Source: Alphaproteobacteria bacterium
Lineage (GTDB): Bacteria > Pseudomonadota > Alphaproteobacteria > MPNO01 > UBA830
Direction of reading: 5' to 3'
Length of the DNA stretch: 64,000 nt
Assembly (NCBI GenBank): GCA_965221485.1
Contig: OZ244893.1
Coordinates: forward strand, 1,995,529 to 2,059,528
The notes below the pieces were generated by a model. That model made no database searches. It was given only the letters and a program-made list of their open reading frames with translations, and had not been told where the DNA came from. Shown here piece after piece: positions 6,815 to 42,917 of this stretch; within the stretch, counting starts at the first letter, position 1, and each line of letters starts with the position of its first letter. The position numbers and the translations under genes are program-made.

Positions 6815-6850
6815 GACACTTTCCCTGAAACGGCCAGCAGTGCTGCGGCT

Positions 6851-27639: not shown

Positions 27640-28041
27640 TCATCCGCTCTCAATGGCTTCCATATCTTCGTCCGAAAGCCCGAAATGATGTCCGATTTCA
27701 TGGACAATGACGTGGCGAACCAGGTGGCTGAGATCTTCCTCGGTCTCACACCAGTAATCGAGTAGTGGTCGCCGATAAAGAAACACCATGTCAACCTCGG
27801 GAACGGCTCCGCCGTCCTTCACACCAATTGGTGTGCCCCGATAGAGACCCATGAGATCGAACGGACTCTGAAGAGCCATTTCCCGCTCGGTCGCCGTATC
27901 CGGAAAATCCTCGACCCGGAAAACGATTTCCTTTGTCAGGGATCGAAATGACGACGGAAGTTCCAGATAAGCCTGCCGCGCGATGGTCTCAATCTCGTCA
28001 AGAGTGGGAGCAGTGGTATGACGGGGCTGTGGAGACAACAT
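27640..28041 (-). CDS. Zincin-like metallopeptidase family protein (DUF1025-type)
   Basis: HEIGHHFGLSDEDM is a HExxH zinc site. Size is 133 aa. Confidence 0.7.
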   Translation of the reverse strand: MLSPQPRHTTAPTLDEIETIARQAYLELPSSFRSLTKEIVFRVEDFPDTATEREMALQSPFDLMGLYRGTPIGVKDGGAVPEVDMVFLYRRPLLDYWCETEEDLSHLVRHVIVHEIGHHFGLSDEDMEAIESG

Positions 28042-28612
28042 TGACTACCAGATCGAGCGGTCGATGGCGGCCGACCGGGTTTCGGCAAGACCTTTACAAT
28101 ACATGACCGGGTGACAGAGCGAAAATATTCTCCCGGAAACGCCCCCGCCGGTCCTTTCTTCTGTCCGGGGCCGAAGCTGCCTTTTTCCGAACCTCGCGGA
28201 AAGCACGAATCCAGGCAGGCCCCGATCCCCGGGCAAGATTCTTGCTCAGGAATAATGGTCACGAGGCCTGAAACCGTGCTGCAGCAGGCTTGCCAGCCAC
28301 CACTTCACGCGTCAGGAGGGGAAGACCAGTGCTGTGCGAGTCGGTCCAGCACCCGGGTGTTGTCAGTCAGCGGATTCGGGACAGGCTGCACACGCTCCGC
28401 CGGGCAGGACAACACATGCGACCCCACCCCATCGGGAAGAACATGGTACCGGACGGTATCCGAGGCCGCGCCCGTACCCGGCCTGCATGAATTGTCGCAT
28501 CCAGCCGGCCCGGAACCACGCTATACTGGCGTTGGCAGGCACCGGGCTGGACAGGGTTCGTGCCCGTCCCCGATGTGCAGGGAAAAGGCGTTCATCAACA
28601 GGAACGGGAGAA

Positions 28613-28924
28613 ATGCTGATGGTCGAAAAACTTGCGGGAGAAGCCCGGCAAATGGCACTCCAGTCTCTGGGCGGCTGGACGGTTACCGACGGGCGCGATG
28701 CAATCACCCGGTCCTTTCGCTTTTCGGATTTCAATGAAGCTTTCGGGTTCATGGCCCGGGTCGCAATCAAGGCCGACCAGATGGATCATCACCCCGAGTG
28801 GTTCAACGTTTACAATCGGGTCGATGTCACACTGTCGACCCACGATGTTGGCGGACTCTCGGAGCGCGACATCGCCCTTGCAAAATTCATCGACAATATT
28901 GCAGGCTCCGCCGGAGATTGGTGA
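28613..28924 (+). CDS. Pterin-4a-carbinolamine dehydratase (PCD/DCoH)
   Basis: The ATG at 28613 has a GGAACGGGAG RBS; the track ORF has a 93-aa spurious extension. It carries the PCD signature [37 protein letters not shown]. Confidence 0.85.
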
Positions 28925-28926
28925 GT

Positions 28927-29859
28927 TCACGAGGCTTTCCCGGATCGGTGCGATGCCAGTCCCGGAATGGTCAACCATAATGATGCACCAAAGATGATGG
29001 CGCCTCCGATCCATGTCCAGACATCCGGAAAGTCCCCGAATACGGCCCATCCCAGGACCGCCGCCCATATCAGTCGCGTGAAATTGAACGGCATGGCGAC
29101 AGAGACGTCCGCAGCCTGTATCCCGCGATTGAAAGTCCGCTGAAGGATAAAACTGGCAAGGCCCATGCTGCCAATCAGGATCCACAGTTCTGGTGGCGGC
29201 GTTTTCCAGACAATCGCAGTGGGAATCACAAGCAGGGCTGTCTGGGTGATAAAAAGCCAGGCGGCGATCGTATCCGGCGTATCCGTGCGCACCAGGGTCT
29301 TGATCAGAACCGTGATCACCGCTCCCGAGAGAGTAGAACCGAGGGCGAAAAGGATGCCCCAGTTCAGTTCGGTAAAGCCCGGTCGTATGACGGCAACCGC
29401 CCCGACAAATCCGACCAGTATGGCCGCCCACCGCTTCACTCCGGCGACTTCCCCAAGAAACAGCACGGCGATGGCCGCACCGATCACCGGCTGCAGGAAA
29501 TTGATAGCCGATATGTCGGCAATAGGCAGGAACGCTGTAGCTGCAAACAAAAGCGTCACATTGATGGAAGACAAGGTGCCGCGCAGGATATGGCGCCCGA
29601 TCCGCTGCGTCTGAAGGGCGGACCTGCCAACACGCATGAACCAGGGGAGCATGAACACCATGGCAAATGCGTTCCTGAGAAAAACGATCTGAAAGACGTG
29701 AATGTCGGGTGCCAGCAGCTTGCTGATGGCAAGCGACACCACGAAAGCAATCGCGGAAAGCGACATCCATATCCCGGCGCGCACAGAACCTGGCAGCGAC
29801 GAAAAAACACCGCGCAACGACCGGACGAGACGATCCGGACTGCGGTTCCTCACCGGCAT
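28927..29859 (-). CDS. DMT-superfamily transporter (EamA/RhaT, 10-TM)
   Basis: Two EamA-type halves are present. The start is probably the ATG at 29859 (MPVRNRS...). Confidence 0.7.
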   Translation of the reverse strand: MPVRNRSPDRLVRSLRGVFSSLPGSVRAGIWMSLSAIAFVVSLAISKLLAPDIHVFQIVFLRNAFAMVFMLPWFMRVGRSALQTQRIGRHILRGTLSSINVTLLFAATAFLPIADISAINFLQPVIGAAIAVLFLGEVAGVKRWAAILVGFVGAVAVIRPGFTELNWGILFALGSTLSGAVITVLIKTLVRTDTPDTIAAWLFITQTALLVIPTAIVWKTPPPELWILIGSMGLASFILQRTFNRGIQAADVSVAMPFNFTRLIWAAVLGWAVFGDFPDVWTWIGGAIIFGASLWLTIPGLASHRSGKAS

Positions 29860-29878
29860 CCCTCCCTGTCCGCGTTTC

Positions 29879-30775
29879 TCATCCAGTGTTCCGGCCCGGT
29901 TTCCTGTCCCGCCTGCCGGCGAATATCGAAGCCGAAAAAATGACGATCGCCCCAACAACGGTCCAGATATCCGGCAATTCCGAAAACGCCACAAACCCGA
30001 TCAGGATCGCAAACAGCAGACGGCTGAAGTCGAACGGCGCAACAGCACTCGCGTCACCGATGGCAAAAGCACGCGAATAGAACCGTTGGGCGGTGGTCGA
30101 AGCGGCTCCGAGAGCAAAGCCCCACAACCATTGCTCCGGATCAGGCCAGGTCCAGACAAACGCAGCGCCCAGCGTCGCAAAGGGCAGCATGTAGACGGAC
30201 TGGTACAATGCTGCTGTATCCGGTCGGTCTGTCCGCAAGGTTACCTTCAGAATCATGGCCGTACACGCAATCAGAAGCCCTGCACCAACGACCATCACGG
30301 CTCCGATATTGACGTCCTGAAACCCCGGCCGAATGACGATCAGCGTCCCAAGGAAACCGACAAGCAACGCCAACCAGCTCCGGCGGCGAAACGGCTCACG
30401 CAGGAACAGAACGCCGAACAGGGCGATGAAGAGCGGAAACGTGAACGAGATCGCGGTCGCATCCGCAATCGGAATCAATGCGACCCCGCCAAACCATCCA
30501 TACATCGCAACCGTGCTGAGCAATCCGCGGCAGACATACAGGCGGGAATGGCGGGTCCTCATTGCGCTGATTCCGACCCGCATCAGCCACGGCAGCATAA
30601 TGACGATCCCGAAAAGGGCTCGAAACAACGAAATCTCCAGAAAATGGAGTTCCTTTGAGAGATGACGCACAATGGCAGCCTGAATAGCGAACATGACGGC
30701 ACTGAGCGTCATCCACAGCGCGCCCTGCCAGGACCTTGGAACACGAGAAATCATCCGGGAAGAAAACGGGTTCAT
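29879..30775 (-). CDS. DMT-superfamily transporter (EamA/RhaT), tandem paralog
   Basis: 298 aa with the same architecture and clear similarity to the neighbouring EamA gene. Confidence 0.7.
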   Translation of the reverse strand: MNPFSSRMISRVPRSWQGALWMTLSAVMFAIQAAIVRHLSKELHFLEISLFRALFGIVIMLPWLMRVGISAMRTRHSRLYVCRGLLSTVAMYGWFGGVALIPIADATAISFTFPLFIALFGVLFLREPFRRRSWLALLVGFLGTLIVIRPGFQDVNIGAVMVVGAGLLIACTAMILKVTLRTDRPDTAALYQSVYMLPFATLGAAFVWTWPDPEQWLWGFALGAASTTAQRFYSRAFAIGDASAVAPFDFSRLLFAILIGFVAFSELPDIWTVVGAIVIFSASIFAGRRDRKPGRNTG

Positions 30776-30813
30776 GGATCGCCCGGATGGTCACATATTC
30801 GAGCGGAATACCC

Positions 30814-31605
30814 ATGCGTTTTGCCAACAGGACAGTCTGGATCACGGGGGCGTCGTCGGGAATCGGCGAAGCTCTCGCAAAGGCTTTTCACGCTGAAGGA
30901 GCCAGCGTCATCCTGTCTTCCCGGCGGGAAAAAGAACTCAACCAGGTAGCCAACACACTTACGGGTGTGTCCGGCGCCGGGGTCACGGTCCTGCCATTTG
31001 ATGTAACCGATGAAACCGCCGTCATGGAAGCAGCCCGAAAGATTATCGAACAATCGGGACCCATTGACATACTCGTGAACAATGCCGGGCTGACACAAAG
31101 GGCAAGGGTCGCTGAAACCGAACTTTCCGTCTTTCGAGAGGTCATGGAAGTAAACTATTTTGGCCCCCTGATGATGACGAAAGCAGTCCTGCCGTCCATG
31201 ATCGATCATGGACGCGGGCATATCGTCACCATCACCAGCGTTGCTGCAAAGTACGGATCACCCCTGCGTTCCGGATATAATGCTGCCAAGCATGCAGCAC
31301 ACGGATTTTTCGATGCGCTGCGCGAGGAAGTGACCGAACACGGAATCGACGTCACCCTTATCGTTCCGGGTGCGGTGAGGACAAACATATCCCTCAATGC
31401 GCTTACCGGCAACGGTGCCCGATACGGACGAATGGACCGCTTTCTCGAACGCGGACTGCCGCCGGAGATCTGCGCGACACGAATACTTGATGCGGTTCAC
31501 ACCAGAAAACGGGAAATCATGATCGCACGGGGCGCTGCGCGCCGACATGTCTATCTCAAGGCGGTTGCGCCGCGACTGCTGTCCCGGGTTCTGCGACGCC
31601 GCTGA
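30814..31605 (+). CDS. Short-chain dehydrogenase/reductase (SDR) family oxidoreductase
   Basis: [12 protein letters not shown] glycine motif, NNAG and the YxxxK motif (YNAAKHA). The start is the ATG at 30814. Confidence 0.8.
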
Positions 31606-31675
31606 GTTGGGGACAATTTCCCCGGAACCCGCAAGAATGATAGCTTGCGAGGCGCATTGGCAAAGGAGCAAGTTC

Positions 31676-33631
31676 TTGGTGCAACCGCTGTGGCAGCCGT
31701 CGCAAGACCGGATCGCGGCCTCCGGAATGACACGTTTTCTGGATGAGGAGGTGCGCAGGCGCTGGAACGTCACACCTTCTGACTACGAAGAGTTTCATCG
31801 CTGGTCGGTTACGGAAAAGGAAAAGTTCTGGCAGTCGATATGGTCCTTTGGCAGAGTCATCGGAGACGGTCCCGGAGACACAGTCCTTGTAAACGGCGAT
31901 CATATGCTTGAGGCCCGGTGGTTTCCCGATGCGAGGCTGAATTTCGCGGAAAACCTCCTGCGACGACGCGATGCCGGACCGGCCCTGATTTTCCGGGGGG
32001 AAAACAGGGTCGAAAGAACCCTGAGCTTCAAGGAGCTTCATGACCTCGTCTCCAGACTGTCATCCGCTCTCAGGAATGAAGGCATCGGACCTGGTGACCG
32101 TGTTGCCGGATATCTTCCCAACATGCCTGAATCTGTCGCTGCGATGCTGGCGGTGGCGAGCGTGGGCGCCATCTGGTCATCCTGCTCTCCCGATTTCGGG
32201 GTCCCCGGCGTGGTTGACAGGTTCGGCCAGATCAAACCGACGCTGTTGTTTTGTTCGGACGGGTACTTCTATAACGGCAAGAGAATCGACATTCTGGACC
32301 GTACGGCCGAAATCCTGGCGCAGATACCGACGATCCAGCGGACCGTTGTCCTGCCCTATGACAGTGATGCCGGAGATATCTCCGCCGTCCGCCAAGCTGT
32401 CAGTCTCGAGGATTTTACGGCGGCCCACCCGCCCGGAGACATCCGGTTCACGCGTACCGAATTCAGTCATCCTCTCTACATTCTGTTTTCGTCAGGAACC
32501 ACCGGAGCTCCGAAATGCATCGTTCACAGCGCCGGGGGCACGCTGCTGAAGCATTTGAGCGAGCACATGCTGCATACGGACATCCGGCGGGATGATCGTG
32601 TGTTCTATTTCACGACCCTGGGCTGGATGATGTCCAATTGGCTTTTTTCCGCCCTCGCATCGGAAGCCACCCTGTTGCTGTATGATGGATCTCCGTTCCA
32701 CCCCGGACCAGAAGCGCTCTTCGACTTTGCAGACGCCGCCGGGATGACACATTTCGGAACCTCGGCCAAGTATATCGATGCCATCAAGAATGCGGGTCTG
32801 AAGCCCGCCAGGACCCATGACCTGTCCCCGGTCCGCACAATCCTGTCCACCGGATCCCCGCTTGTGGAGGAAAGCTACGACTACATCTATGACTGCGTGA
32901 AGTCCGATGTCTGTCTTTCGTCAATCTCCGGCGGAACTGATATCGTGGGTTGTTTCGTCCTCGGAAACCCCAATGGACCGGTTTACCGCGGAGAAATTCA
33001 GGCCAAGGCTCTGGGCCTCGATGTCGATATCCTCGACGATGTTGGCCGCCCAATCACAGGCGAGAAAGGTGAACTTGTCTGCAAGGCACCATTTCCGTCG
33101 ATGCCCGTGAAATTCTGGAACGATCCCGACGGATCCAGGTACCGGACGGCCTACTTCGATCGTTTCAGGAACATATGGTGCCACGGAGACTATGCCGAAA
33201 TTACCGGACAGGGCGGCATGAGAATCTTCGGGAGATCCGACGCCGTTCTGAATCCCGGTGGTGTCAGGATAGGTACTGCCGAGATTTATCGGCAGGTCGA
33301 ACAGTTTCCGGAAATTGAAGAAGGACTCGCCATCGGGCAGGAATGGAAAAACGATCAACGTGTGATCCTGTTCGTTCGCCTCTCCGAAACAGCCGCGCTC
33401 GACGACGAACTGGTTCATCGGATACGGCAACGCATCCGCCAGAATTGTTCGCCACGACATGTCCCATCAAAAATCCTTTCGGTATCCGATATTCCACGCA
33501 CCAAATCAGGTAAAATAACGGAACTGGCGGTCCGGGAAGTGGTTCACGGACGAACTGTCAGGAATGTTGAAGCGCTTGCCAATCCGGAAGCACTGGACTA
33601 CTTCAGGGATCGGGAGGAACTCGCGGACTGA
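31676..33631 (+). CDS. Acetoacetyl-CoA synthetase-like acyl/acetoacetate–CoA ligase
   Basis: ~650 aa from the TTG at 31676 with a perfect AAGGAG RBS 8 nt upstream. The N-terminus (LVQPLWQPS...MTRFLD...YEEFHRWSV...FWQSIW) matches the AcsA pattern. It has the AMP-binding motifs SSGTTGAPK and the YxxGD/Lys tail. Confidence 0.75.
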
Positions 33632-33726
33632 ACCGGAACCCAGGTGCCACCCGGCTGAATTCTTCTGTTATCGTTATGAAAAACGGCGGAAGTGTTGCCT
33701 GCCAATCGTGTAACAACAGGGTCGTT

Positions 33727-35613
33727 ATGACCAAAACAGCGTGGAGACTGCGCGCAAAAATGCCCATTAGACGGATTTGGGGCCGCGTTCCTGCTGCCGC
33801 AATAGCCATTGCAGTGGCAATCTCTCTGGCTGGCATCACATCGGATGTGCTCGCTCAGGACAAGACCCTCGGCCCGCGCGCTGCGGCCATCGACGCAAAC
33901 AAGAACGGCGTCATTGATCGGAACGAAGCCAGGGGGCCACTCGACGAGAGTTTCAGCGAAATGGACTGCGACAGGTCCGGTGCGCTTGATGGCGAAGAAA
34001 TCAGAAACTTCTTTTCCGGCACCGGATGCCCGGAGACCCAGACTGCCGCTCCGGAATCGACAAGCCCCGCCCCCGACACGACACTCGGCCCGCGCGCTGC
34101 AGCCATTGACGCAAACAAGAACGGCGTCATTGATCGGGACGAGGCAAGGGGACCGCTCGACGAGAGTTTCAGCGAAATGGACTGCGACAGGTCCGGTGCG
34201 CTCGATGGGGCAGAAATCAGAAACTTCTTTTCCGGCACCGGATGCCCGGAGACCCAGACTGCCGCTCCGGAATCGACGGGCCCCGCCCCCGACACGACAC
34301 TCGGCCCGCGCGCTGCAGCCATTGACGCAAACAAGAACGGCGTCATTGATCGGGACGAGGCAAGGGGACCGCTCGACGAGAGTTTCAACGAGATGGACTG
34401 CGACAAGTCAGGTGCGCTCGATGGCGCAGAAATCAGGAACTTTTTTTCCGGTTCGGGGTGCCCCGAGACCCAGACTGCCGGCCGTACAGGGGCAACACCG
34501 CCCGGGCCGCAACCGGGACAAGCTTCCGGCGGGAGCAACGCACAGCGACCACGCGGGCGTCCGCCCCGTTCGGTGCGCGTCGATGAGGTGATCAGGGAAA
34601 CGCAGTCGCAAACGTTTCCGGTCATCGGCCGGTTGGTGGCACGCCGTGCCGGCATCGTCGCATCCTTCATCCCGGGCGCCGTCGCCGGACTTAACTTTGA
34701 CGTGGGAGACCGGGTTAAAAAGCGTGACATCATTGCTACTCTGGCTCCCGCCAGACTGAAGGCGGCCCGCGACAAGTTTCAGGCTGCGAGGGCAACCCGC
34801 GATGCCATGGTGCGAACAGCCGAATCAGAACATAACAAGAAGGTGCAGGAACTTCGGCGCATGGAGAGCCTGCGTACGTCTTCCGCGTTCTCACGTGCAC
34901 GATACGAGGATCTTGTCCGCGATGTCGAGGGGCGCAAGGCGGTCATCGCAGAACGACGTTCACTGCTGAAACAAGCGGAAGCGGAACTCAAGCAGGCCTC
35001 GATCGATCTTGCGAATGCCACTATCCGCGCACCCTATGACGGTGTGATCGTGGAGAAACACACCGAAATTGGCTCCTACGTCAGCTTCGGTGGATCGGTC
35101 GTCACCATGATCAGCGATAGCGATATCGAGGTCGAAGCCGGCGTTCCCTCCGACCTGATCGCCGGCCTCAATCGTGGAATGGCGATTCGCGTAAGGCTTG
35201 ACGACGAAACGGAACACCGGTCCGTGATCCGCGCCATCGTGCCACAGGAAAATCCGCGTACCCGAACCCGTCTTGTGCGCATGACGCCGGAGTTTGGAGA
35301 GACGTCCAAGCAACTGGCTGTCAACCAAAGTGCGACCGCGATGATCCCGATTGGCAAGATTCGTGAGGTTGTCACTGTCCACAAGGATGCCATCGTACAC
35401 CGGAACAATGCCCAGCAGGTCTATGTTGTCCGCAACAACCGCGCCTTTCAGAGACCGGTCGAAATCGGCGATGCTGTCGGTAATCGATACATTGTCCTGT
35501 CAGGACTGAAGCCTGGTGATGTTGTGGTGGTCCAGGGCAACGAGGGACTGCCCCCGGGATCCAGGATCCGTATCTTGACCGACACCCTGGCAGTCGGGGT
35601 CACCACACAATGA
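33727..35613 (+). CDS. RND-efflux membrane-fusion protein (periplasmic adaptor) with an N-terminal triple EF-hand-pair repeat extension
   Basis: The C-terminal ~350 aa form a typical HlyD/AcrA-like adaptor (coiled-coil hairpin, lipoyl and beta-barrel regions), and the gene overlaps the RND pump start (ATGA). The N-terminal ~270 aa are a signal peptide plus three ~72-aa repeats. Each repeat contains two 12-residue EF-hand loops (DANKNGVIDRNE and DCDRSGALDGEE). Start choice (33727) is uncertain. Confidence 0.75.
   Translation: MTKTAWRLRAKMPIRRIWGRVPAAAIAIAVAISLAGITSDVLAQDKTLGPRAAAIDANKNGVIDRNEARGPLDESFSEMDCDRSGALDGEEIRNFFSGTGCPETQTAAPESTSPAPDTTLGPRAAAIDANKNGVIDRDEARGPLDESFSEMDCDRSGALDGAEIRNFFSGTGCPETQTAAPESTGPAPDTTLGPRAAAIDANKNGVIDRDEARGPLDESFNEMDCDKSGALDGAEIRNFFSGSGCPETQTAGRTGATPPGPQPGQASGGSNAQRPRGRPPRSVRVDEVIRETQSQTFPVIGRLVARRAGIVASFIPGAVAGLNFDVGDRVKKRDIIATLAPARLKAARDKFQAARATRDAMVRTAESEHNKKVQELRRMESLRTSSAFSRARYEDLVRDVEGRKAVIAERRSLLKQAEAELKQASIDLANATIRAPYDGVIVEKHTEIGSYVSFGGSVVTMISDSDIEVEAGVPSDLIAGLNRGMAIRVRLDDETEHRSVIRAIVPQENPRTRTRLVRMTPEFGETSKQLAVNQSATAMIPIGKIREVVTVHKDAIVHRNNAQQVYVVRNNRAFQRPVEIGDAVGNRYIVLSGLKPGDVVVVQGNEGLPPGSRIRILTDTLAVGVTTQ
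33868..34480 (+). repeat. 216-bp near-perfect tandem repeat (~2.8 copies) inside the adaptor-protein gene
   Basis: Copies begin at 33868, 34084 and 34300 (CTCGGCCCGCGCGCTGC...). Only a few substitutions separate the copies. The repeats are in-frame and encode the EF-hand-pair module. Confidence 0.85.
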
Positions 35614-38600
35614 ATATCATTCGCCTTGCTATCGAACGACCGACCGCGGTCGTTGCGCTGGTGCTCATGATCATCCTTTTCGGATATGTCGCCCTGCAAC
35701 GGATTCCGATTCAGATGGCGCCGGATGTACGTCAGCCGATCATCAATGTGACGACCGTTTGGCCGGGAGCGGCGCCGGCTGAGATCGAGCGCGAAATCAT
35801 TCTCCCACAGGAAGATCAGCTCAAGGGGCTCGAGGGTGTGCGGAAGATGACGTCGCGGGCCATGCCGAACCGCAGTCAGATCACCCTGGAGTTCGGGCCA
35901 AGTGTCAATTTCAATCGCGCCTTGCTGCTGGTTGCCAACCGGCTCGATCGGGTCGCCCGTTATCCGAACGAGGCCAATCAACCTGTTCTGTCTACATCGG
36001 GGACCGAAGACAACGCCATTGCCTGGTTCGTCCTGACCCGCGAGGAGGGCAATAATCGGGATCTGATAAATTACGGCGATTTCCTGATTGATGTGGTTCA
36101 GGAACGTTTTGAGCGCATCAAGGGCGTAGCCGGGGTCAATATATTTGGCGACACGGAACGCGAAATGACCATCACGGTTACGCCGCAGTCCCTGGCCCGT
36201 TACGGAATGACGGTCAGCGAGGTGCTTCGTCGATTGCGTGCCTCAAACACTTCCATGACAGCCGGAGATGTGGAGGAGGGGAAACGCCGCTATGTCGTGC
36301 GGACCGAAGGCGGCATCACCGCAACCCGGGAAGCCGAACAGATCGTTCTCCGCTCGGACAGCAACAGCGGGACAAATTTCGGTTCGGGAGCCGGTCTTGG
36401 TCGGGTTCTTGTCGGAGATATTGCCGGGGTCAATATCGGATACAAGAAGGCGCAGGCGCGGCTGCGGCAGCTGGATGAACCGGCACTGGGTTTCAATATA
36501 ACCCGTGAGCAGGGCGCAAACGTCATCGAAACGATGAGAGAGGTGAACCTCGTCGCTGCAGAACTGGCGGCCGGTCCCCTCAAGGAACAGGGGCTGATTG
36601 TCGAACAGGTCTATGACGAAACCGACTACATCCAGTCCTCTATCAATCTGGTGCTCCAGAATATCTATGTGGGCGGCGTACTCGCAATTGTGATCCTGCT
36701 GGTTTTTCTTCGCTCCTGGCGCCCCACCCTCGTGATCGCCCTGTCCATCCCCGTATCTGTCATCGGATCCTTCGTGGCCATGGCCGTCCTTGGTCGATCT
36801 CTGAACGTGGTCAGCCTTGCTGGAATAGCCTTCGCTGTCGGTATGGTTGTTGACGCCGCGATTGTGGTGCTGGAGAACATCTACAGGATGCGTCAGGAGG
36901 GCCGATCCGCTGCGGAAGCAGCCTATCATGGTGTCCAGCAGGTCTGGCCGGCGGTTCTGGTTTCCTCCCTGACAACCGTGATGGTGTTCATCCCGATTCT
37001 GATCATGGACCTTGAAGTCGGCCAGTTGTTCCGGGATATCGCTGTCGCGATTTCTGTTTCGGTCCTGCTCTCGCTGCTGGTTGCGGTCACGCTGATTCCG
37101 GCATTATCGAAGGGCCTGCTTGGTGGCCGCGTCGACAGGAAGGATTTCAGGATACGCGTTCCTATCGTTGACTGGTTTTCAGCCTGGTTTGTGAGATTTT
37201 GGACCGGTTATGCGCGCGTGGTTGCGCGCTACAAGGCGGCTGCACTTGTTCTGGTTGCGTGCATCATCGGTGTCGCCACCGTTGTCACCATCGCGATCAT
37301 GCCCAAGCTCGACTACCTTCCAACAGGAAGCCGAAACTTCGCGATCGGGATTGTCATTCCGCCGGCCGGCTACAACCTCGACACTAACGAAGCCATCCTC
37401 AAGAAGCTGTCAGACGCCACAAAACCCTTTTGGTCGCGTGGTCCGGAAGCTGAAACAACACCGCCCGAAGATCAGATTATCGATCGCTTTTTCTATGTCG
37501 CCCGCCTTGGCCGCATGTTTTTCGCTGCCACCCATGTCAATGAACGCCGGGCCCATGAACTGATTCCCTTGCTTACGGAGCGGGCGCGGAAGGAGCCCGG
37601 CGTCCTTGCCTTTGTATTCCAGCCCTCGCTGTTCGGGCGCTCCATCGGTTCGGGGCGTAACATCGACATTGAAGTCGCGGGGCCCCAGCTCGATGATGTC
37701 TATGCGGTGGGGCAGGAGGTCTTCTTCTCGACCCTAGGAGCGTTGCCGCCAAGTCAGGGACATCGTGCACGCCCCCGCCCCGCACTGACCCTGGGAGCCC
37801 CCGAAGTCAGAATTCTGCCTGATCATGTCCGTCTCACCGACAACGGCCTGTCAGCACGGGAGCTCGCTGAGTCCGTTGACGCGTTCAACGACGGCGTGCG
37901 CGTGGATGAAATCTCCTTGGACGGCCGGCGGATCGATCTGGTTCTGAAGGGCCCGGAACCGCAAAGGGAATCGACACAGGCCATAAGGGCCTTGCCTGTC
38001 GTTACGTCAGATGGCCGGATCGTTAACGTCTCCAGTCTGGCTGATGTCATCGAAACCGCCGGGCCCACAGAAATCCAGAGGATAGACCGGGCACGAACTA
38101 TAACCATCCGGGTCAGCCCGTCTCCCGGAATGCCGCTCCAGGCGGCGATGGACATCATTGAAAAAGATGTGCTGGCCCCGATCACAGCCAAGGGTCTTCC
38201 CGAGGGTGTGCGATTTCGCCTTGCGGGAAGCGCCGACAAACTCGTCGTGACCTGGAATCATATGGTTCTCGACCTCGTTCTCGCTCTGATCATCGTCTAT
38301 CTGGTGATGGCGGTTCTGTTCGAGAGTTTTCTTTATCCCTGGATTGTCATGCTTGCGGTGCCGGTCGCGGCGGCCGGAGGGTTAGGCGGCCTCGCGCTGC
38401 TCAACACATATGTGAACCAGCCCCTCGACATGCTCACAATGCTTGGCTTCGTGATATTGATCGGAATTGTTGTCAATAGCGCCATTCTGCTTGTGCACCA
38501 AACCCTCTACCACACGCGTCACGACGGAATGGAAGTCAACCGGGCCATAGAAACGGCGACCCGAAACCGTATTCGCCCTATCTTCATGTCCACCCTGACG

Positions 38601-38819
38601 TCGATATTTGGAATGCTGCCGCTTGTCGTCTTTCCCGGCTCCGGTTCGGAACTCTACCGGGGCCTTGGTTCAGTAGTCCTTGGAGGCCTGGCGTTATCGG
38701 CGGTTCTGACAATGGCTATCGTTCCGCCAATGATGTCCCTGACTGTCGGAGTCGTTGAACGCCGGAGAATGCGACGGAAAAAGATGACGGTTCCGGAGGC
38801 GCAACCGGCACAGACATGA
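35610..38819 (+). CDS. RND-family efflux pump inner-membrane permease (AcrB/AcrD-like)
   Basis: 1069 aa with 12 TMs and two large periplasmic loops. The start is translationally coupled to the adaptor gene. Confidence 0.9.
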   Translation: MNIIRLAIERPTAVVALVLMIILFGYVALQRIPIQMAPDVRQPIINVTTVWPGAAPAEIEREIILPQEDQLKGLEGVRKMTSRAMPNRSQITLEFGPSVNFNRALLLVANRLDRVARYPNEANQPVLSTSGTEDNAIAWFVLTREEGNNRDLINYGDFLIDVVQERFERIKGVAGVNIFGDTEREMTITVTPQSLARYGMTVSEVLRRLRASNTSMTAGDVEEGKRRYVVRTEGGITATREAEQIVLRSDSNSGTNFGSGAGLGRVLVGDIAGVNIGYKKAQARLRQLDEPALGFNITREQGANVIETMREVNLVAAELAAGPLKEQGLIVEQVYDETDYIQSSINLVLQNIYVGGVLAIVILLVFLRSWRPTLVIALSIPVSVIGSFVAMAVLGRSLNVVSLAGIAFAVGMVVDAAIVVLENIYRMRQEGRSAAEAAYHGVQQVWPAVLVSSLTTVMVFIPILIMDLEVGQLFRDIAVAISVSVLLSLLVAVTLIPALSKGLLGGRVDRKDFRIRVPIVDWFSAWFVRFWTGYARVVARYKAAALVLVACIIGVATVVTIAIMPKLDYLPTGSRNFAIGIVIPPAGYNLDTNEAILKKLSDATKPFWSRGPEAETTPPEDQIIDRFFYVARLGRMFFAATHVNERRAHELIPLLTERARKEPGVLAFVFQPSLFGRSIGSGRNIDIEVAGPQLDDVYAVGQEVFFSTLGALPPSQGHRARPRPALTLGAPEVRILPDHVRLTDNGLSARELAESVDAFNDGVRVDEISLDGRRIDLVLKGPEPQRESTQAIRALPVVTSDGRIVNVSSLADVIETAGPTEIQRIDRARTITIRVSPSPGMPLQAAMDIIEKDVLAPITAKGLPEGVRFRLAGSADKLVVTWNHMVLDLVLALIIVYLVMAVLFESFLYPWIVMLAVPVAAAGGLGGLALLNTYVNQPLDMLTMLGFVILIGIVVNSAILLVHQTLYHTRHDGMEVNRAIETATRNRIRPIFMSTLTSIFGMLPLVVFPGSGSELYRGLGSVVLGGLALSAVLTMAIVPPMMSLTVGVVERRRMRRKKMTVPEAQPAQT

Positions 38820-39205
38820 ACCGATCTGTCTACGGGGCCCCATTCGGACCAGCGCCGACTGACAGCGCCTGAAGCGGCGGAGTTGTCTCCGCTGTGATGA
38901 GATCAGTGTTCAACGTGGCCTCTTCGCATTCCGTCAGGATGGGCACGGTTTGGCCTCGGATTGCTCGGGGCGAACACTGCGGAGTTTGCAGAGAATAATG
39001 CGAAACTCTGTGTCGGCCTCATATGGACCGGTATCATCAGTCAGTCGGCTGTCGCGCTGATAGCCGCAGGCCAGGTGCACATCGCGACCAAGGAATTAGC
39101 AATCCACGCTTGGTCCGCTTTCGGACAGGCACGGAGAATGGACCAGCCATGGTCCCGGTTTCTGCCACTGTGACTCTTCAGGTCCAGAACTGCCTCACCT
39201 CCGGG

Positions 39206-40525
39206 TTACAGCCGCCACAAATCCACATCCGGTGGACAATCATCCGGGGGAAGTATTGACTTGACGTCGATCACGGCGCCCCGTTCGGCACGAAGCAGTT
39301 TCTTCACACCTGCCCAGCCTGCATCCCGGAACAGCTGATGAGAAACTGCGACGATCACGCAATCTGCCGGTCGCAGGCTGGACACAGGGACGAGGTCGAG
39401 TTCGAACAATCGCCTGGCCTCACAGGGATCAGCAATCGGATCACAAATCTGGAGGTCAAACCCGTAATCGCGCAATTCTCTCACGATATCGATGACGCGC
39501 GTGTTACGCAGGTCCGCAACATTTTCCTTGAAAGTCAGACCCAATATGGTAACGACACGGTTTTGAGAGCCGCCGTCCAGCCTCGCGAGGTGTTTGACAG
39601 CTTGCTGGGCAACATAGGCACCCATCGCGTCATTGATGCGCCGGGCAGTGAGAATCAGCTCGGCGTAGGATCCCATGGTCGCGGCCTTGTGGGAGAGGTA
39701 ATAGGGATCGACCCCGATACAATGGCCTCCCACAAGTCCGGGGGTGAACGGCAGAAAGTTCCACTTTGTTCCTGCCACCGCCAGAACTTCACCGGTATCA
39801 ATGTCCATGCGGTCGAACAGCATCGCGATTTCATTCATGAAAGCGATATTCAGATCCCGCTGCGTGTTCTCGACCACCTTTGCAGCTTCGGCAATCCGGA
39901 TGCTGGAAGCGCGATGCACGCCCGCCGTTACCACCGATCCGTACACTGCGGAAATGATATCAAGTGTGCGTTTGTCCTGACCCGACACAACCTTCACGAT
40001 ATCGGCAAACCCTCGCGCCAAATCGCCTGGATTGATTCGCTCGGGTGAATAGCCAACCGTAAACTCCACACCGGCCGTCAACCCTGAGCAGTGCTCCAGC
40101 AACGGGACGCACTCATCTTCAGTGACTCCCGGATATACCGTGGATTCAAAAACCACAATGTCCCCTTCACCGAGCTGCTCGCCGACGATGCGGCATGCAG
40201 ACCGCACCTGGTCAAGATCGGGCCCTCGGGCTGCATTGACCGGGGTTGGTACCGTCACAATATGGAAATCGGCCCGGGCCAAATGCCGGGGATCGGCTGT
40301 AAATCCGATATCCGCTTCGGCAAGTGTCGTTGGATCGAATGCGCCTGTTCGATCAACGCCTGCAATCAGTTCGTCAATTCGCGCCCCGTCAATATCGAAG
40401 CCCACCACGCGGCCGTGGTTGCCGAAACTGACAGCGACGGGCAGACCCACGTAGCCAAGCCCCACCACCGAAATTTTGCGACCATGGCTCACAGCCGGGA
40501 TATCCCGGAACAAACGATTTGCCAC
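39206..40525 (-). CDS. Nucleotide-sugar dehydrogenase (UDP-glucose/GDP-mannose dehydrogenase family; WbpA/TviB-like)
   Basis: N-terminal NAD fold ISVVGLGYVGLPVA and the catalytic Cys region GGHCIGVDPYYL. Length is 439 aa. Confidence 0.8.
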   Translation of the reverse strand: MANRLFRDIPAVSHGRKISVVGLGYVGLPVAVSFGNHGRVVGFDIDGARIDELIAGVDRTGAFDPTTLAEADIGFTADPRHLARADFHIVTVPTPVNAARGPDLDQVRSACRIVGEQLGEGDIVVFESTVYPGVTEDECVPLLEHCSGLTAGVEFTVGYSPERINPGDLARGFADIVKVVSGQDKRTLDIISAVYGSVVTAGVHRASSIRIAEAAKVVENTQRDLNIAFMNEIAMLFDRMDIDTGEVLAVAGTKWNFLPFTPGLVGGHCIGVDPYYLSHKAATMGSYAELILTARRINDAMGAYVAQQAVKHLARLDGGSQNRVVTILGLTFKENVADLRNTRVIDIVRELRDYGFDLQICDPIADPCEARRLFELDLVPVSSLRPADCVIVAVSHQLFRDAGWAGVKKLLRAERGAVIDVKSILPPDDCPPDVDLWRL

Positions 40526-40984
40526 GTTGACCAGCCCGGCAACGGGTCAACAGCGTCGATTGTTGTCAATGCCGAACCGGTATCGCTGAACACGGCCTCG
40601 CGAAGGTCTGCACTCATGATGTCCCTATCCTCTGCCTCAACCTCGTCATCGCGACTTCCGGGTCTTCGTTACCGCCTGCAAACACTCCGGGCAAGCCCCG
40701 AACACGCTAACGGGGCAACCGACGCCGCCGGATTGCCCGATCAGTGTTCGCAAAGCCAATCAGTCACCCCATGGTCGACTGTCGAATGTCCCGGTCAGCG
40801 GTGCATCGAGAATAACCAGAGCCATCCGGCCTGCGCTCGGACCGTTCGCGCAAAATTTGCCGGGGCAGAATGGCGTTAAAGCGCGGACACCCCGATAAAC
40901 TGCCACAATGAACGTGCCTTGTTCGGTCAGAACTGGATTTACGCGCAAACCGGTCCTAACTTGCGAGGCGAGGAGTTGGCTTTC

Positions 40985-41833
40985 ATGCAGACCATCAACT
41001 GGGTTTCCCTTTCCCGGCGACGCATCCTGTCCTTGTCGGGGAACGATGCAAGACCTTTTCTTCAGGGACTGATCACGAACGACATAGACGGGATCGCACC
41101 ATCACGGGCAATCTACGCGGCTCTTCTGACACCCCAGGGAAGATTTCTCCACGATTTTTTCATTGCGCAGTGCGGTGATCGGCTCTTTGTGGATACCGAC
41201 ATGGACCATCTGCCTGATCTGTTGAAACGCCTGGGGATGTACAGGCTGCGCGCCAAAGTAGACATCCGGGACGAATCCGGACAATGGCGGGTCATCGCGC
41301 TCCCCGGAGATTCCGGCAGGGCCATCAGTCGAGAGCCGTGGCCCGGATGTGTGATTTTCGCCGATCCAAGAGACCCTGCGCTGGGCAGCAGAATCATTCT
41401 CCCTGCTGATTTTGCCGACACAGTCATCGGAAGCAAGGAATATTGTGAGGTCGATTTCAATGTCTATGAGCGTCTCCGCATCTCACGCGGGGTTCCGGAT
41501 GGCGCTGTTGACTGCATCCAGGACAAGACGCTTGCCCTTGAGGGACGGCTGGACGAATGCAACGGGATTTCGTTTGAAAAAGGCTGTTATGTCGGACAGG
41601 AAGTCACGACCCGGATGAAACACCGGAACCTTGTCAAGCGAAGTCTGGTCCCGGTCTCCTTCGACGGACCGCCGCCCGAACCCGGTAGTCCTGTGACGAG
41701 CGATGATCTCGATGCGGGGGAAATCCGTTCCGGTGTCGATGGCCTTGCACTTGCCATGGTGCGGCTTGACCTGGCGAGAAAAGGCGGCCTGGAGACCCGA
41801 GGCCGATCCCTGCTCCTGGCAGGACCGGTTTAG
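40985..41833 (+). CDS. ygfZ: YgfZ/CAF17 folate-binding Fe-S cluster assembly/repair protein
   Basis: The KGCYVGQE signature is present, with a GcvT-like fold. The ATG at 40985 has a GAGGAG RBS; the track ORF has a 22-aa extension. Confidence 0.8.
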   Translation: MQTINWVSLSRRRILSLSGNDARPFLQGLITNDIDGIAPSRAIYAALLTPQGRFLHDFFIAQCGDRLFVDTDMDHLPDLLKRLGMYRLRAKVDIRDESGQWRVIALPGDSGRAISREPWPGCVIFADPRDPALGSRIILPADFADTVIGSKEYCEVDFNVYERLRISRGVPDGAVDCIQDKTLALEGRLDECNGISFEKGCYVGQEVTTRMKHRNLVKRSLVPVSFDGPPPEPGSPVTSDDLDAGEIRSGVDGLALAMVRLDLARKGGLETRGRSLLLAGPV

Positions 41834-41865
41834 AGCCCCGCAGACCGGGTCGCCCTGCCTGCCTG

Positions 41866-42867: not shown

Positions 42868-42917
42868 GATCGCTCCCCTGTTTTTTCACAGCAACTTCAC
42901 GCCTTGTTCACCACTTT

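What the first reader, a model, noticed from the sequence alone, without database searches (positions are those of the whole stretch)
33727..34500. RND membrane-fusion protein with an N-terminal array of three tandem EF-hand pairs (six canonical Ca2+-binding loops)
The adaptor gene contains a 216-bp repeat in ~2.8 near-identical copies (starts 33868, 34084 and 34300). Each 72-aa unit has two textbook 12-residue EF-hand loops: DANKNGVIDRNE (D1, N3, N5, G6, I8, E12) and DCDRSGALDGEE (D1, D3, S5, G6, L8, E12), bridged by a short segment, which is an EF-hand pair. The units are joined by Pro/Thr-rich linkers (TQTAAPESTSPAPDTT), and a Gly/Pro/Arg-rich stretch follows. After that the protein becomes a normal AcrA/HlyD-type adaptor, translationally coupled to an AcrB-like pump. 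A periplasmic calcium-sensing module fused to a tripartite-efflux adaptor is unusual. It could gate efflux on periplasmic Ca2+ or sequester Ca2+. The very high copy identity indicates recent expansion.
Basis: seen in the sequence. Interest (0 to 1): 0.6.

Follow-up and report, generated by a model that had tools for sequence, protein, structure and literature searches.

The report
Efflux-pump adaptor carrying calcium-binding EF-hand beads
A periplasmic adaptor protein of a bacterial efflux pump really does carry three tandem calcium-binding (EF-hand pair) modules at its front end; this undescribed architecture marks a whole clade of adaptors in uncultured, mostly marine Alphaproteobacteria, and what the modules do is untested.

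Summary
An in-frame 216-bp repeat (2.9 copies, 33859-34480) encodes three 59-residue EF-hand pairs, six canonical loops in all. They lie between a Sec signal peptide and a classical four-domain RND adaptor, whose stop codon overlaps the start of an RND pump gene (ATGA). This is not a one-off. All 120 best homologues carry one (17), two (97) or three (4) such units, and two N-terminally truncated records show three loops. All related loci come from uncultured alphaproteobacterial MAGs, with the pump directly downstream. Each unit has lanmodulin-like 12-residue loop spacing. Each also has two cysteines that are kept or lost only together, which implies a periplasmic disulfide. The units are more conserved (67%) than the adaptor core (59%), while the linkers are not (21-25%). 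The window's middle copy is a mosaic of the outer two, so the array grew from two units to three by unequal crossing-over. A sister clade lacks the units. The same unit also heads TRAP solute-binding proteins and metallo-beta-lactamase-fold proteins. I found no paper describing the fusion. Most likely it is a portable, Ca2+-folded, disulfide-stapled periplasmic module at the adaptor's membrane-proximal end, with a structural or association role. A Ca2+ gate is not excluded. It is a new variant of a known kind, of moderate interest.

The parts
33676..35613 (+). Adaptor (membrane fusion protein) gene. The longest ORF is 645 aa. Alternative starts are 33727 (M18, used in the NCBI record P0001, 628 aa) and 33760 (M29, which best matches homologue N-termini).
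33760..33855 (+). Sec-type signal peptide (MPIRRIWGRVPAAAIAIAVAISLAGITSDVLA), with a predicted signal peptidase I site after A60 (VLA|QDK). There is no lipobox.
   Evidence: An [AVSGT]-x-[AGS]-Q motif lies 8-18 residues before loop 1 in 72 of 78 distinct homologue N-termini, and only 1 of 78 has a lipobox-like motif. Cleavage is inferred, not shown.
33859..34480 (+). 216-bp tandem repeat array, 2.9 copies
33865..34041 (+). EF-hand pair unit 1 (T64-Q122). Loop 1 is at 33892-33927 (DANKNGVIDRNE) and loop 2 at 33964-33999 (DCDRSGALDGEE). The cysteines are Cys98 and Cys118.
34042..34080 (+). Pro/Thr/Ala-rich linker 1, predicted disordered
   Evidence: pLDDT below 50; 21-25% identity to homologues
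34081..34257 (+). EF-hand pair unit 2 (T136-Q194). Loops are at 34108-34143 and 34180-34215. This is a mosaic copy: codons 1-30 are identical to unit 3, and codons 31-40 and 45-65 are identical to unit 1.
34258..34296 (+). Pro/Thr/Ala-rich linker 2, predicted disordered
34297..34473 (+). EF-hand pair unit 3 (T208-Q266). Loops are at 34324-34359 and 34396-34431. This core-proximal unit aligns with the unit present in every homologue.
34474..34563 (+). Gly/Pro/Arg-rich linker ending in the conserved GRPPRSVRVD entry into the membrane-proximal domain
34564..35613 (+). Four-domain RND adaptor core (membrane-proximal, beta-barrel, lipoyl and alpha-hairpin domains). The hairpin helices span residues 358-398 and 407-446 (34747-35013).
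   Evidence: TIGR01730 matches residues 301-633. AF2 pLDDT exceeds 90 over most of the core. Foldseek matches AcrA/MexA/MacA at E 7e-27 to 1e-23. phmmer matches TriAB 6vej at 5e-28 and MexJ at 5e-20.
35610..38819 (+). RND permease (1069 aa). Its start overlaps the adaptor's stop (ATGA). The TM4 motif is GMVVDAAIVVLEN.

Best explanation
The gene encodes an exported RND adaptor without a lipid anchor. In the mature protein, three compact EF-hand pair modules come first, followed by the normal four-domain adaptor.

Supported by sequence and homologue evidence:
- Each module is about 55 residues, with two canonical 12-residue loops only 12 residues apart.
- The modules are joined by unconserved Pro/Ala/Thr linkers that are predicted to be disordered.
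- The module is the defining, strongly conserved feature of a clade of adaptor-pump operons in uncultured, mostly marine Alphaproteobacteria, with 1-3 copies per protein.
- This genome gained its third copy by unequal crossing-over within a two-unit array.

Inferred:
- After Sec export and signal-peptide cleavage, each unit binds two Ca2+ ions. Ca2+ is plentiful in a marine periplasm.
- Each unit then folds into a small EF-hand lobe, locked by a disulfide between the Cys at loop-2 position 2 and the Cys 20 residues downstream.
- Both termini of an adaptor lie in its membrane-proximal domain. The beads therefore hang beside the pump's periplasmic domain and the inner-membrane surface, up to 18 beads (36 sites) per hexameric adaptor ring.

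Most likely role: a portable, Ca2+-dependent structural or association module. It would help an anchor-less periplasmic protein fold, stay soluble, self-associate or stay close to its membrane partner. A pump-specific Ca2+ gate or a Ca2+ hand-off device is less likely.
For: Anatomy.
Clade-wide conservation:
- All 120 best homologues have 1-3 units.
- All 61 related genome loci are alphaproteobacterial MAGs, and the pump lies directly downstream in 55 of them.
- Mean identity to 62 homologues is 67% for the EF units, 59% for the adaptor core and 21-25% for the linkers.
Metal ligands: D1 and E12 are invariant in both loops, but the finder pattern required D at position 1 and allowed only E/D/Q or E/D at position 12. 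N3 is 98%, N5 92%, G6 92% and I8 94% in loop 1; L8 and D9 are 100% in loop 2. These figures come from 187 unique units and are partly shaped by the pattern.
Disulfide: both Cys are present in 182 units, both absent in 5, and never one alone.
Export: the A-x-A-Q site is conserved in 72 of 78 N-termini, with no lipobox.
Fold:
- The AF2 unit model has pLDDT 85.5, with helix-loop-helix twice and an inter-loop beta bridge.
- The full-length model shows three confident beads (pLDDT 83-96) separated by segments below 50.
Accessory and portable nature:
- An EF-less sister clade has the same signal peptide joined directly to the core, and the same pump family.
- The same Cys-stapled unit follows the signal peptide of TRAP DctP proteins (P0202 in a DctP-DctQM operon, P0203, P0212) and of MBL-fold proteins (P0130, P0171).
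Copy-number dynamics:
- The middle copy is a mosaic of the outer two.
- Units within one protein are a median 86% identical, against about 60-64% between the window's units and orthologous units.
Against: No metal binding, cleavage, disulfide or phenotype has been measured, so the functional step is inference.
- Conservation higher than that of the adaptor core could equally reflect a specific regulatory interface.
- Two of the three carrier families (adaptors and TRAP binding proteins) are partners of inner-membrane transporters. This would also fit a Ca2+-dependent docking or regulatory role.
- Foldseek found only weak structural matches for the unit (best E 0.11, TM 0.5-0.6), so the model is not independently anchored.
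- Ca2+ affinity is unknown. If it is millimolar, as lanmodulin's Ca2+ response is (my recollection, not checked in a paper here), the units could sense changes around environmental Ca2+ levels.
Confidence: 0.45

Rival explanations
1. Ca2+ sensor or gate. Ca2+ occupancy of the EF array changes the conformation or assembly of the adaptor, and so switches the pump on or off with periplasmic Ca2+.
For: The loops are canonical and strongly conserved. The units are more conserved than the adaptor core. They are attached at the membrane-proximal end, where CusB's regulatory metal-binding tail also sits (review PMC4446572). A periplasm-facing EF-hand protein, EfhP, mediates Ca2+ responses in Pseudomonas (PMC4053335). 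One other adaptor, P0175, independently carries three compact EF pairs at its C-terminus, which lies in the same physical region.
Against: Copy number varies from 1 to 3 among close orthologues. The linkers to the core are unconserved and predicted to be disordered. An EF-less sister clade uses the same pump family. The same unit sits on DctP and MBL-fold proteins. Most members are marine or sponge MAGs, where Ca2+ is about 10 mM and steady (established knowledge), which leaves little signal to sense. The P0175-type fusion is a singleton.
Confidence: 0.2
2. Substrate-metal capture and hand-off, as in CusB or SilB. The EF array would bind a hard cation (Ca2+ or another di- or trivalent metal) and deliver it to the pump for export.
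For: HME-type adaptors are known to carry extra N- or C-terminal metal-binding domains, such as the CusB N-terminus and the SilB CusF-like domain (PMC4446572). There are weak CzcB-family signals: TIGR00999 at 108 bits, and BSH_CzcB and CzcB_C Pfam hits. The pump's TM4 has a single Asp (VVDAAIV) where solved multidrug pumps have VVDDAIV.
Against: All heavy-metal family models score far below their cut-offs: TIGR00999 108 v 319, CusB 20 v 390, and pump TIGR00914 312 v 701. The closest solved pumps and adaptors are multidrug-type, namely OqxB, CmeB, MdtB, TriAB and MexJ. Exporting Ca2+ from a periplasm that equilibrates with 10 mM seawater Ca2+ would be futile (inference). The unit also occurs on proteins that are not part of pumps.
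Confidence: 0.08
3. Lanthanide-binding module related to lanmodulin, tying the pump to rare-earth homeostasis.
For: The best solved-structure sequence match for the array is lanmodulin (6mi5 E 6e-6; 8fns), gapless across both loops and the 12-residue spacer. The NCBIfam LanM model gives E 6e-13. The 12-13-residue spacing is a stated LanM hallmark (PMC10232371). Asp at loop position 9 is conserved.
Against: The LanM model scores 48.9 bits against a cut-off of 135. No loop has Pro at position 2; the residues there are Ala/Lys/Thr and Cys. Loop 1 has neutral Asn at positions 3 and 5 instead of Asp. The protein is not a small four-EF protein. No lanthanide-related genes were noticed in the window.
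Confidence: 0.05
4. Artefact: an assembly-expanded repeat, or a non-coding repeat upstream of the true start codon.
For: Tandem repeats can be mis-assembled, and raw reads were not inspected.
Against: The copies are distinguishable (13-43 differences). An independently assembled contig with 18 indel differences elsewhere carries the identical three-copy gene. Three-unit arrays also occur in other lineages: P0002/L002, P0003, P0110/L025, L038, P0121 and P0122. Synonymous changes predominate: 10 synonymous to 3 non-synonymous codons between copies 1 and 2. The repeats follow a conserved signal peptide, in frame.
Confidence: 0.02

Closest known systems
Heavy-metal RND adaptors with accessory metal-binding domains (CusB N-terminal Met-rich tail; SilB C-terminal CusF-like domain)
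   Same: A periplasmic adaptor of an RND pump carries an extra metal-binding region at a terminus, which places it at the membrane-proximal end next to the pump. The adaptor has no lipid anchor; CusB is described as a soluble adaptor (abstract of PMC6235853). Extra N- and C-terminal domains on HME adaptors are described in PMC4446572.
   Different: The extra region is built from EF-hand pairs with oxygen ligands, not Met or CusF-type soft-metal sites. It is repeated 1-3 times on flexible linkers. The core and pump score as multidrug-type rather than HME. The review does not mention EF-hands or calcium.
Lanmodulin (LanM)
   Same: Both are periplasmic bacterial EF-hand proteins with adjacent loops only 12-13 residues apart. 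Lanmodulin is the best solved-structure sequence match, gapless over loop-spacer-loop. They share the E12-A-x-x-x-x-x-x-x-F-D/x-x-[ML]-D1 spacing pattern.
   Different: The unit scores below the LanM model cut-off (48.9 v 135 bits). It has no Pro at loop position 2, and Asn rather than Asp at positions 3 and 5 of loop 1. There are two loops per unit rather than a four-EF three-helix bundle. The unit has a disulfide staple and is fused to a 350-residue adaptor.
EfhP (PA4107) of Pseudomonas aeruginosa
   Same: A pair of closely spaced EF loops (residues 88-99 and 115-126), predicted to face the periplasm of a Gram-negative bacterium and linked to Ca2+ responses (PMC4053335).
   Different: EfhP is a small stand-alone protein predicted to be anchored in the membrane, not part of an efflux adaptor. 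Sequence relatedness was not tested here.
Calsymin (CasA) of Rhizobium etli
   Same: A secreted alphaproteobacterial protein that, from my own knowledge (Xi et al. 2000, PNAS), is built of three repeated domains with two EF-hands each. That is the same 3 x 2 layout. It is cited as a bacterial EF-hand Ca2+ transducer in PMC4053335.
   Different: Calsymin is a stand-alone protein with no adaptor domain.
TriA/TriB, MexJ, AcrA/MexA and MacA adaptors
   Same: The C-terminal 350 residues form a standard four-domain adaptor with a long alpha-hairpin: 6vej 5e-28 and MexJ 5e-20 by sequence, and AcrA/MexA/MacA at E 7e-27 to 1e-23 by fold. The gene lies in an operon with its RND pump.
   Different: The protein has a cleavable signal peptide without a lipobox or TM anchor, and a 200-residue EF-hand array precedes the membrane-proximal domain.

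Membership tests
RND periplasmic adaptor / membrane fusion protein (TIGR01730 RND_mfp) | Family HMM above the curated cut-off | tested here: met
   187.2 bits against a cut-off of 94.9, residues 301-633
RND periplasmic adaptor / membrane fusion protein (TIGR01730 RND_mfp) | Four-domain fold: membrane-proximal, beta-barrel, lipoyl, alpha-hairpin | tested here: met
   The AF2 model has pLDDT above 90 over most of the core, with hairpin helices of 41 and 40 residues. Foldseek matches AcrA, MexA and MacA at E 7e-27 to 1e-23.
RND periplasmic adaptor / membrane fusion protein (TIGR01730 RND_mfp) | Encoded next to its RND permease | tested here: met
   The pump gene overlaps the adaptor's stop by 4 nt. 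The pump lies directly downstream in 55 of 61 related loci.
RND periplasmic adaptor / membrane fusion protein (TIGR01730 RND_mfp) | Works with an outer-membrane factor (TolC-like) | not testable with these tools
   No OMF was found in the window or conserved near related loci. The rest of the genome was not available.
Canonical EF-hand (Pfam PF00036 / PF13499) | Family HMMs above gathering score | tested here: met
   EF-hand_1 67.5 v 25.4; EF-hand_6 65.4 v 25; EF-hand_7 62.3 v 30; EF-hand_5 48.4 v 25.9
Canonical EF-hand (Pfam PF00036 / PF13499) | 12-residue loop with ligands at positions 1, 3, 5 and 12, Gly at 6 and a hydrophobic residue at 8 | tested here: met
   All six loops in the window conform. 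The positions are conserved across 187 unique units, although the finder pattern itself required part of this.
Canonical EF-hand (Pfam PF00036 / PF13499) | Helix-loop-helix motifs paired through a short beta bridge | tested here: met
   The AF2 unit model has helices 7-12, 28-36 and 46-54 and strands 20-21/43-44, with pLDDT 85.5. All Foldseek hits are EF-hand lobes, but weak (best E 0.11).
Canonical EF-hand (Pfam PF00036 / PF13499) | Binds Ca2+ | not testable with these tools
   This needs ITC, 45Ca overlay or CD on purified protein.
Lanmodulin (NCBIfam NF053806; criteria in PMC10232371) | Family HMM above the curated cut-off | tested here: not met
   48.9 bits against a cut-off of 135
Lanmodulin (NCBIfam NF053806; criteria in PMC10232371) | Adjacent EF hands separated by 12-13 residues | tested here: met
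   The spacer within each unit is exactly 12 residues in all proteins examined. Between units the spacer is 36 residues.
Lanmodulin (NCBIfam NF053806; criteria in PMC10232371) | Proline at loop position 2 in at least one EF hand | tested here: not met
   Position 2 is Ala 43%/Lys 42%/Thr 6% in loop 1 and Cys 97% in loop 2. Pro is not among the four commonest residues at either position, and none of the window's six loops has it.
Lanmodulin (NCBIfam NF053806; criteria in PMC10232371) | Small (<200 aa) protein with four EF hands | tested here: not met
   The protein is 645 aa with six loops and is fused to an adaptor.
Heavy-metal-efflux adaptor (CzcB/CusB type) | CzcB/NccB or CusB family HMM above cut-off | tested here: not met
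   TIGR00999 108.2 v 319.3; NF007303 CusB 20.2 v 390
Heavy-metal-efflux adaptor (CzcB/CusB type) | Partner pump of the CusA/CzcA (HME) family | tested here: not met
   TIGR00914 scores 311.7 v 701.45. The multidrug-type models score higher (574 and 494 bits) but are also below their cut-offs. The nearest solved pumps are multidrug-type.
Dockerin type I (duplicated Ca2+-binding loop-helix module) | Pfam Dockerin_1 match | tested here: not met
   Dockerin_1 is not among the hits at E <= 1.
EfhP / calsymin-type bacterial EF-hand proteins | Sequence relatedness to PA4107 or CasA | not tested
The comparison rests on the descriptions in PMC4053335 and on my own knowledge.

The most novel reading that the evidence does not exclude
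The EF-hand beads are a metal-operated device for assembly or activity. Ca2+ (or another hard cation) would fold them, and they would then dock on the pump, the membrane or each other, so controlling whether an anchor-less adaptor ring forms around a non-metal RND pump. This would be the first metal-regulated multidrug-type tripartite pump. It would also be a portable 'Ca2+ latch' shared with TRAP binding proteins.
Probability: 0.2. Interest if true: 0.75.

Novelty: new variant of a known kind. Interest (0 to 1): 0.5.

Why it matters
RND adaptors are intensively studied as the parts of efflux machines that couple and regulate the pump. The only accessory domains the 2015 adaptor review describes are soft-metal sites on heavy-metal pumps (PMC4446572). 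Here, a conserved clade of adaptors carries one to three canonical EF-hand pairs that appear to be disulfide-stapled. These units are more conserved than the adaptor core itself. That is a new architecture, and it comes with clear, inexpensive experiments. The unit is also a compact EF-hand pair of about 55 residues with lanmodulin-like loop spacing, and it has been moved onto at least three kinds of periplasmic protein. It may therefore be a general periplasmic Ca2+-dependent module, and it is of possible interest for protein engineering. All carriers found are uncultured Alphaproteobacteria, which probably explains why the architecture has gone unnoticed.

Tried and rejected
- **Assembly artefact or non-coding repeat.** Rejected. 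The copies are distinguishable, an independent contig carries the same array, and other lineages have three-unit arrays.
- **Lipoprotein or TM-anchored adaptor.** Rejected. There is no lipobox (1 of 78), and an A-x-A-Q signal-peptidase site is conserved.
- **The EF module replaces a lost membrane anchor.** Not supported. The EF-less sister clade has the same cleavable signal peptide and no anchor either.
- **Lanmodulin membership.** Rejected: HMM below cut-off and no Pro at loop position 2.
- **Dockerin.** No Pfam hit.
- **Heavy-metal efflux system.** The family models score far below their cut-offs, and the nearest solved relatives are multidrug-type.
- **Conserved neighbours that might hint at substrate or regulation.** I found only patchy synteny: EamA, SDR, Sir2, Pterin_4a, CMD and others. 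No OMF and no regulator turned up.
- **Promoter and terminator scan of 33300-39300.** No more sites than in shuffled sequence.
- **Foldseek of the single-unit model against the PDB.** Only weak EF-lobe hits (best E 0.11), and lanmodulin was not among the 50 best hits listed.
- **Literature.** No paper combines EF-hand, 'membrane fusion protein' and RND. No paper combines lanmodulin, EF-hand, efflux and RND. Two papers contain both 'EF-hand' and 'periplasmic adaptor' (a Xanthomonas effector screen and a Flavobacterium transcriptome), and neither title nor abstract concerns such a fusion.
- **A second class of adaptors with C-terminal EF arrays.** The one example (P0175) is a singleton. Its nearest homologues have no EF-hand Pfam hits.
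- **Organism name.** Not obtained. The cluster look-up returned no names or accessions, and the species-representative genome set did not include this genome.
Full report

Yes. ORF 33676-35613 (+, 645 aa) contains a tandem repeat at 33859-34480 with period 216, 2.9 copies, 93% matches and no indels. The period equals 72 codons and is in frame.

Six 12-residue EF-hand loops start at 33892, 33964, 34108, 34180, 34324 and 34396. Pfam EF-hand_1, _6, _7 and _5 all exceed their curated cut-offs (E 3e-19 to 4.5e-13). HlyD_3 and HlyD_D23 cover the C-terminal half. NCBIfam TIGR01730 (RND adaptor) scores 187 bits against a cut-off of 94.9 over residues 301-633. The next ORF (35610-38819, 1069 aa) is an RND permease whose ATG overlaps the adaptor's stop codon.

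An independently assembled ENA contig (L001) matches window 26611-45611 at 99.9% identity, but with 18 gap openings. It encodes the identical 645-aa protein. The three-copy array is therefore not peculiar to one assembly. Raw reads could not be checked.

**2. Anatomy**

*Start and export signal.* Three ATG codons (33676, 33727, 33760) precede a typical signal peptide, which ends ...SDVLA|QDK. In 72 of 78 distinct homologue N-termini, an [AVSGT]-x-[AGS]-Q motif sits 8-18 residues before the first loop. A lipobox-like motif occurs once. Whichever start is used, and whether or not the peptide is cleaved, the repeats are coding and end up on the periplasmic side with the adaptor core.

*The EF units.* The mature protein would begin at Q61. 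Three units follow (T64-Q122, T136-Q194, T208-Q266). Each consists of a short helix, loop 1 (D-A-N-K-N-G-V-I-D-R-x-E), a 12-residue spacer (A-R-G-P-L-D-E-S-F-x-E-M), loop 2 (D-C-D-[RK]-S-G-A-L-D-G-x-E), and a helix ending in F-F-S-G-x-G-C-P.

*Linkers.* The units are joined by 13-residue Pro/Thr/Ala-rich linkers. A 30-residue Gly/Pro/Arg stretch leads into the conserved GRPPxxVRVD entry of the membrane-proximal domain.

*Predicted structure.*
- AlphaFold2 on one unit with a 77-sequence alignment gives pLDDT 85.5. It shows two helix-loop-helix motifs bridged by a two-residue beta ladder, which is the classic EF-hand pair.
- The full-length model (pLDDT 83.5) has three confident beads (pLDDT 83-96), separated by segments with pLDDT below 50 at residues 121-131, 193-203 and 265-292.
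- After the beads comes a standard four-domain adaptor with a 41 + 40-residue alpha-hairpin.
- That core matches AcrA, MexA and MacA by fold (E 7e-27 to 1e-23). By sequence it matches TriA-TriB (6vej, 5e-28) and MexJ (5e-20).

**3. It is a family, not a one-off**

*Homologues.* A search of 5.8 billion proteins gave 264 hits. Every one of the 120 best (42-61% identity) has EF-hand pairs in front of the adaptor. Seventeen have two loops, 97 have four and four have six. Two N-terminally truncated records show three. Where the sources name these proteins, they call them only 'RND family efflux transporter MFP subunit'.

*Genomes.* A scan of species-representative genomes returned 61 loci. All are MAGs or single-cell genomes of uncultured Alphaproteobacteria. 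They include Rhodospirillaceae, UBA830, MarineAlpha3, Defluviicoccus (some from sponge bins), Paracoccaceae and Methyloligellaceae. The pump lies directly downstream in 55 of them, at 55-78% identity. Nothing else is consistently conserved nearby, and there is no outer-membrane factor and no regulator.

*Sister clade.* A sister group (L051-L056; adaptor 38-42% and pump about 55% identical) has no EF-hands. There the same A-x-A-Q-G signal-peptide end runs straight into the RVRVDAV core. The units were therefore inserted between the cleavage site and the core of an adaptor that already lacked an anchor.

**4. Signs of selection and of a disulfide**

- Mean identity of the window protein to 62 homologues is 67% in the EF units and 59% in the adaptor core. 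It is 21-25% in the linkers and signal peptide.
- Across 187 unique units, the metal-ligand positions are essentially fixed. Part of this was imposed by the search pattern. However, no protein showed a degenerate unit or an odd loop count unless it was truncated or frameshifted.
- The two cysteines, at loop-2 position 2 and 20 residues downstream, are present together in 182 units and absent together in 5. They never occur singly. That pattern is what a structural disulfide predicts, and it fits a periplasmic location. The bond itself is inferred.

**5. How the third copy arose**

- Copies 1 and 2 differ at 13 of 216 nt (10 synonymous and 3 non-synonymous codons).
- Copy 2 is identical to copy 3 over codons 1-30, and identical to copy 1 over codons 31-40 and 45-65.
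- A hybrid middle unit with a 5' part like the last unit and a 3' part like the first is the expected product of unequal crossing-over in a two-unit array (A-B becomes A-B/A-B). A short conversion patch lies at codons 41-44.
- Two units is the modal state of the family.
- More generally, units within one protein are a median 86% identical. The window's units are only 60-64% identical to units of orthologues. The arrays therefore evolve in concert or re-duplicate repeatedly.
- Three-unit arrays have arisen in several lineages: L002/P0002, P0003, P0110/L025, L038, P0121 and P0122.

**6. What kind of EF-hand is this?**

The 12-residue spacing between paired loops is about half the usual roughly 25 residues. 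It is one of the published hallmarks of lanmodulin (PMC10232371). Lanmodulin is also the best solved-structure sequence match for the array (6mi5 E 6e-6, gapless). The NCBIfam LanM model gives E 6e-13.

Membership of the lanmodulin family nevertheless fails:
- The score is 48.9 bits against a cut-off of 135.
- No loop has Pro at position 2.
- Loop 1 has Asn at positions 3 and 5.
- The protein is not a small four-EF bundle.

Foldseek finds only weak similarity to ordinary EF lobes such as RASEF, calmodulin, troponin C and polcalcin (best E 0.11, TM 0.5-0.6).

A profile of the unit finds 3994 representatives at E <= 1e-3 among 1.84 billion proteins. Most are secreted multi-EF repeat proteins with the same compact spacing and the same E-A-x-G-[PR]-L...F-D-x-[IM]-D spacer. 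The unit thus belongs to a broad bacterial class of compact EF pairs, and lanmodulin is the characterised member of that class.

**7. The unit is portable**

Full-length Cys-stapled units also sit directly after the signal peptide of other periplasmic proteins:
- TRAP-type DctP solute-binding proteins: P0202, P0203 and P0212. P0202 lies in a DctP-DctQM operon (L063).
- Metallo-beta-lactamase-fold proteins: P0130, with two units, and P0171.

One unrelated, TM-anchored adaptor (P0175) carries three compact EF pairs at its C-terminus. Its nearest homologues have no EF-hand Pfam hits, so that fusion is a singleton.

**8. Mechanism**

*Supported by sequence, homologues and models:* the architecture, the conservation, the export signal motif, the cysteine covariation, the bead-on-string prediction and the accessory nature of the module.

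*Inferred:* Ca2+ binding, signal-peptide cleavage, the disulfide, and the position of the beads. In adaptors, both the N- and C-terminal segments build the membrane-proximal domain (established knowledge). The beads should therefore hang beside the pump's periplasmic domain and the inner-membrane surface.

Most carriers come from marine or sponge samples. There, external Ca2+ is about 10 mM and porins equilibrate the periplasm with the outside (established knowledge). The sites are therefore probably always occupied.

Five observations point the same way: the floating copy number, the unconserved linkers, the EF-less sister clade, the reuse on other periplasmic proteins, and the likely saturation with Ca2+. 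Together they make a general role the best-supported reading: Ca2+-dependent folding, stabilising, association or retention. I put this at about 0.45.

The rivals are:
- A Ca2+ gate, at about 0.2. It is kept alive by the very strong conservation of the units and by the fact that two of the three carrier families are partners of inner-membrane transporters.
- Metal hand-off in the manner of CusB or SilB, at about 0.08. All heavy-metal family models fail, and exporting Ca2+ into seawater makes little sense.
- A lanthanide role, at about 0.05.
- An artefact, at about 0.02.

**9. Comparison with what is known, and novelty**

The 2015 review of periplasmic adaptors lists only the CusB N-terminal and SilB C-terminal metal domains as extras. 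It contains neither 'EF-hand' nor 'calcium'. The held part of a 2021 Chem Rev review (300,000 of 747,799 characters) contains no 'EF-hand'. Full-text searches found no paper on such a fusion.

The core is an ordinary member of the adaptor family. The EF-hand array in front of it is a new variant of the known theme 'adaptor with an accessory metal-binding region'. It is built from a compact, lanmodulin-spaced EF pair that appears to be disulfide-stapled. It is not categorically new, and public databases already hold hundreds of unannotated examples.

**10. Verdict**

Interest is moderate (0.5). An efflux or bacterial-calcium specialist would find the architecture unexpected and easy to test. 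The function is unknown, however, and the evidence leans away from the most exciting reading.

Noticed in passing
window 35610-38819, motif at about 36840; loci L001-L060: The pump's TM4 motif reads GMVVDAAIVVLEN. It is invariant in all 54 related pumps examined, including those of the EF-less sister clade. The four solved multidrug RND pumps whose alignments were shown (7wlv, MdtB 9lyq, 8yr0 and CmeB 5lq3) all have VVDDAIVV, with two adjacent Asp. This pump family has a single Asp at the proton-relay site and scores below the cut-offs of every NCBIfam RND model.
   Followed up: partly
P0202 (locus L063 181-1452), P0203, P0212, P0130, P0171: The same Cys-stapled EF-hand pair unit sits directly after the signal peptide of TRAP DctP solute-binding proteins; one of them lies in a DctP-DctQM-PhyH operon. 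It also heads metallo-beta-lactamase-fold proteins. The unit therefore looks like a mobile periplasmic module.
   Followed up: partly
P0175 (617 aa, ENA contig of 105 kb): An unrelated adaptor with an N-terminal hydrophobic (probable transmembrane) segment carries three compact EF-hand pairs at its C-terminus, on Gly-rich linkers. Its closest homologues (P0271, P0272; 57-60% identity) have no EF-hand Pfam hits, so this is an independent, singleton EF-adaptor fusion.
   Followed up: yes
loci L051-L056: A sister clade of adaptor-pump operons (adaptor 38-42% and pump about 55% identical) has no EF-hands. The signal peptide ends A-x-A-Q-G and joins the RVRVDAV core directly. This is a natural 'minus-module' control.
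   Followed up: partly
window 22961-23749 (-): A 262-aa protein with an N-terminal hydrophobic segment has a C-terminal Excalibur calcium-binding domain (PF05901, E 6e-8; motifs DDNGNGRITCRE and DGDRDGVVCE). It also has a DIDHIV motif that resembles HNH/DUF1524 nucleases; that resemblance was not verified. It is a second extracytoplasmic Ca2+-binding protein in the same window.
   Followed up: partly
L001 1-2919 compared with window upstream of 26611: The ENA contig that otherwise matches the window at 99.9% begins with 2.9 kb of 37% GC sequence that contains no ORFs and has no counterpart in the window (58% GC). This is probably a chimeric contig end or a strain-specific insertion.
   Followed up: partly
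window 9253-10566 (-): A 437-aa ATPase with AAA_15/AAA_21 domains (AbiEii/OLD-like). It may be part of a defence or toxin-antitoxin-type locus.
   Followed up: no
window 5990-7408 (+) and 28595-29770 (-): Two long ORFs (472 and 391 aa) have no Pfam match at E <= 1e-5.
   Followed up: no
window 55688-57586 (-): A TRAP DctM-type permease (PF06808, E 6e-79). The ORF upstream of it on the same strand (57629-58648) was not annotated. No EF-hand loop was detected anywhere in that region, so no EF-tagged protein lies next to this TRAP gene.
   Followed up: partly
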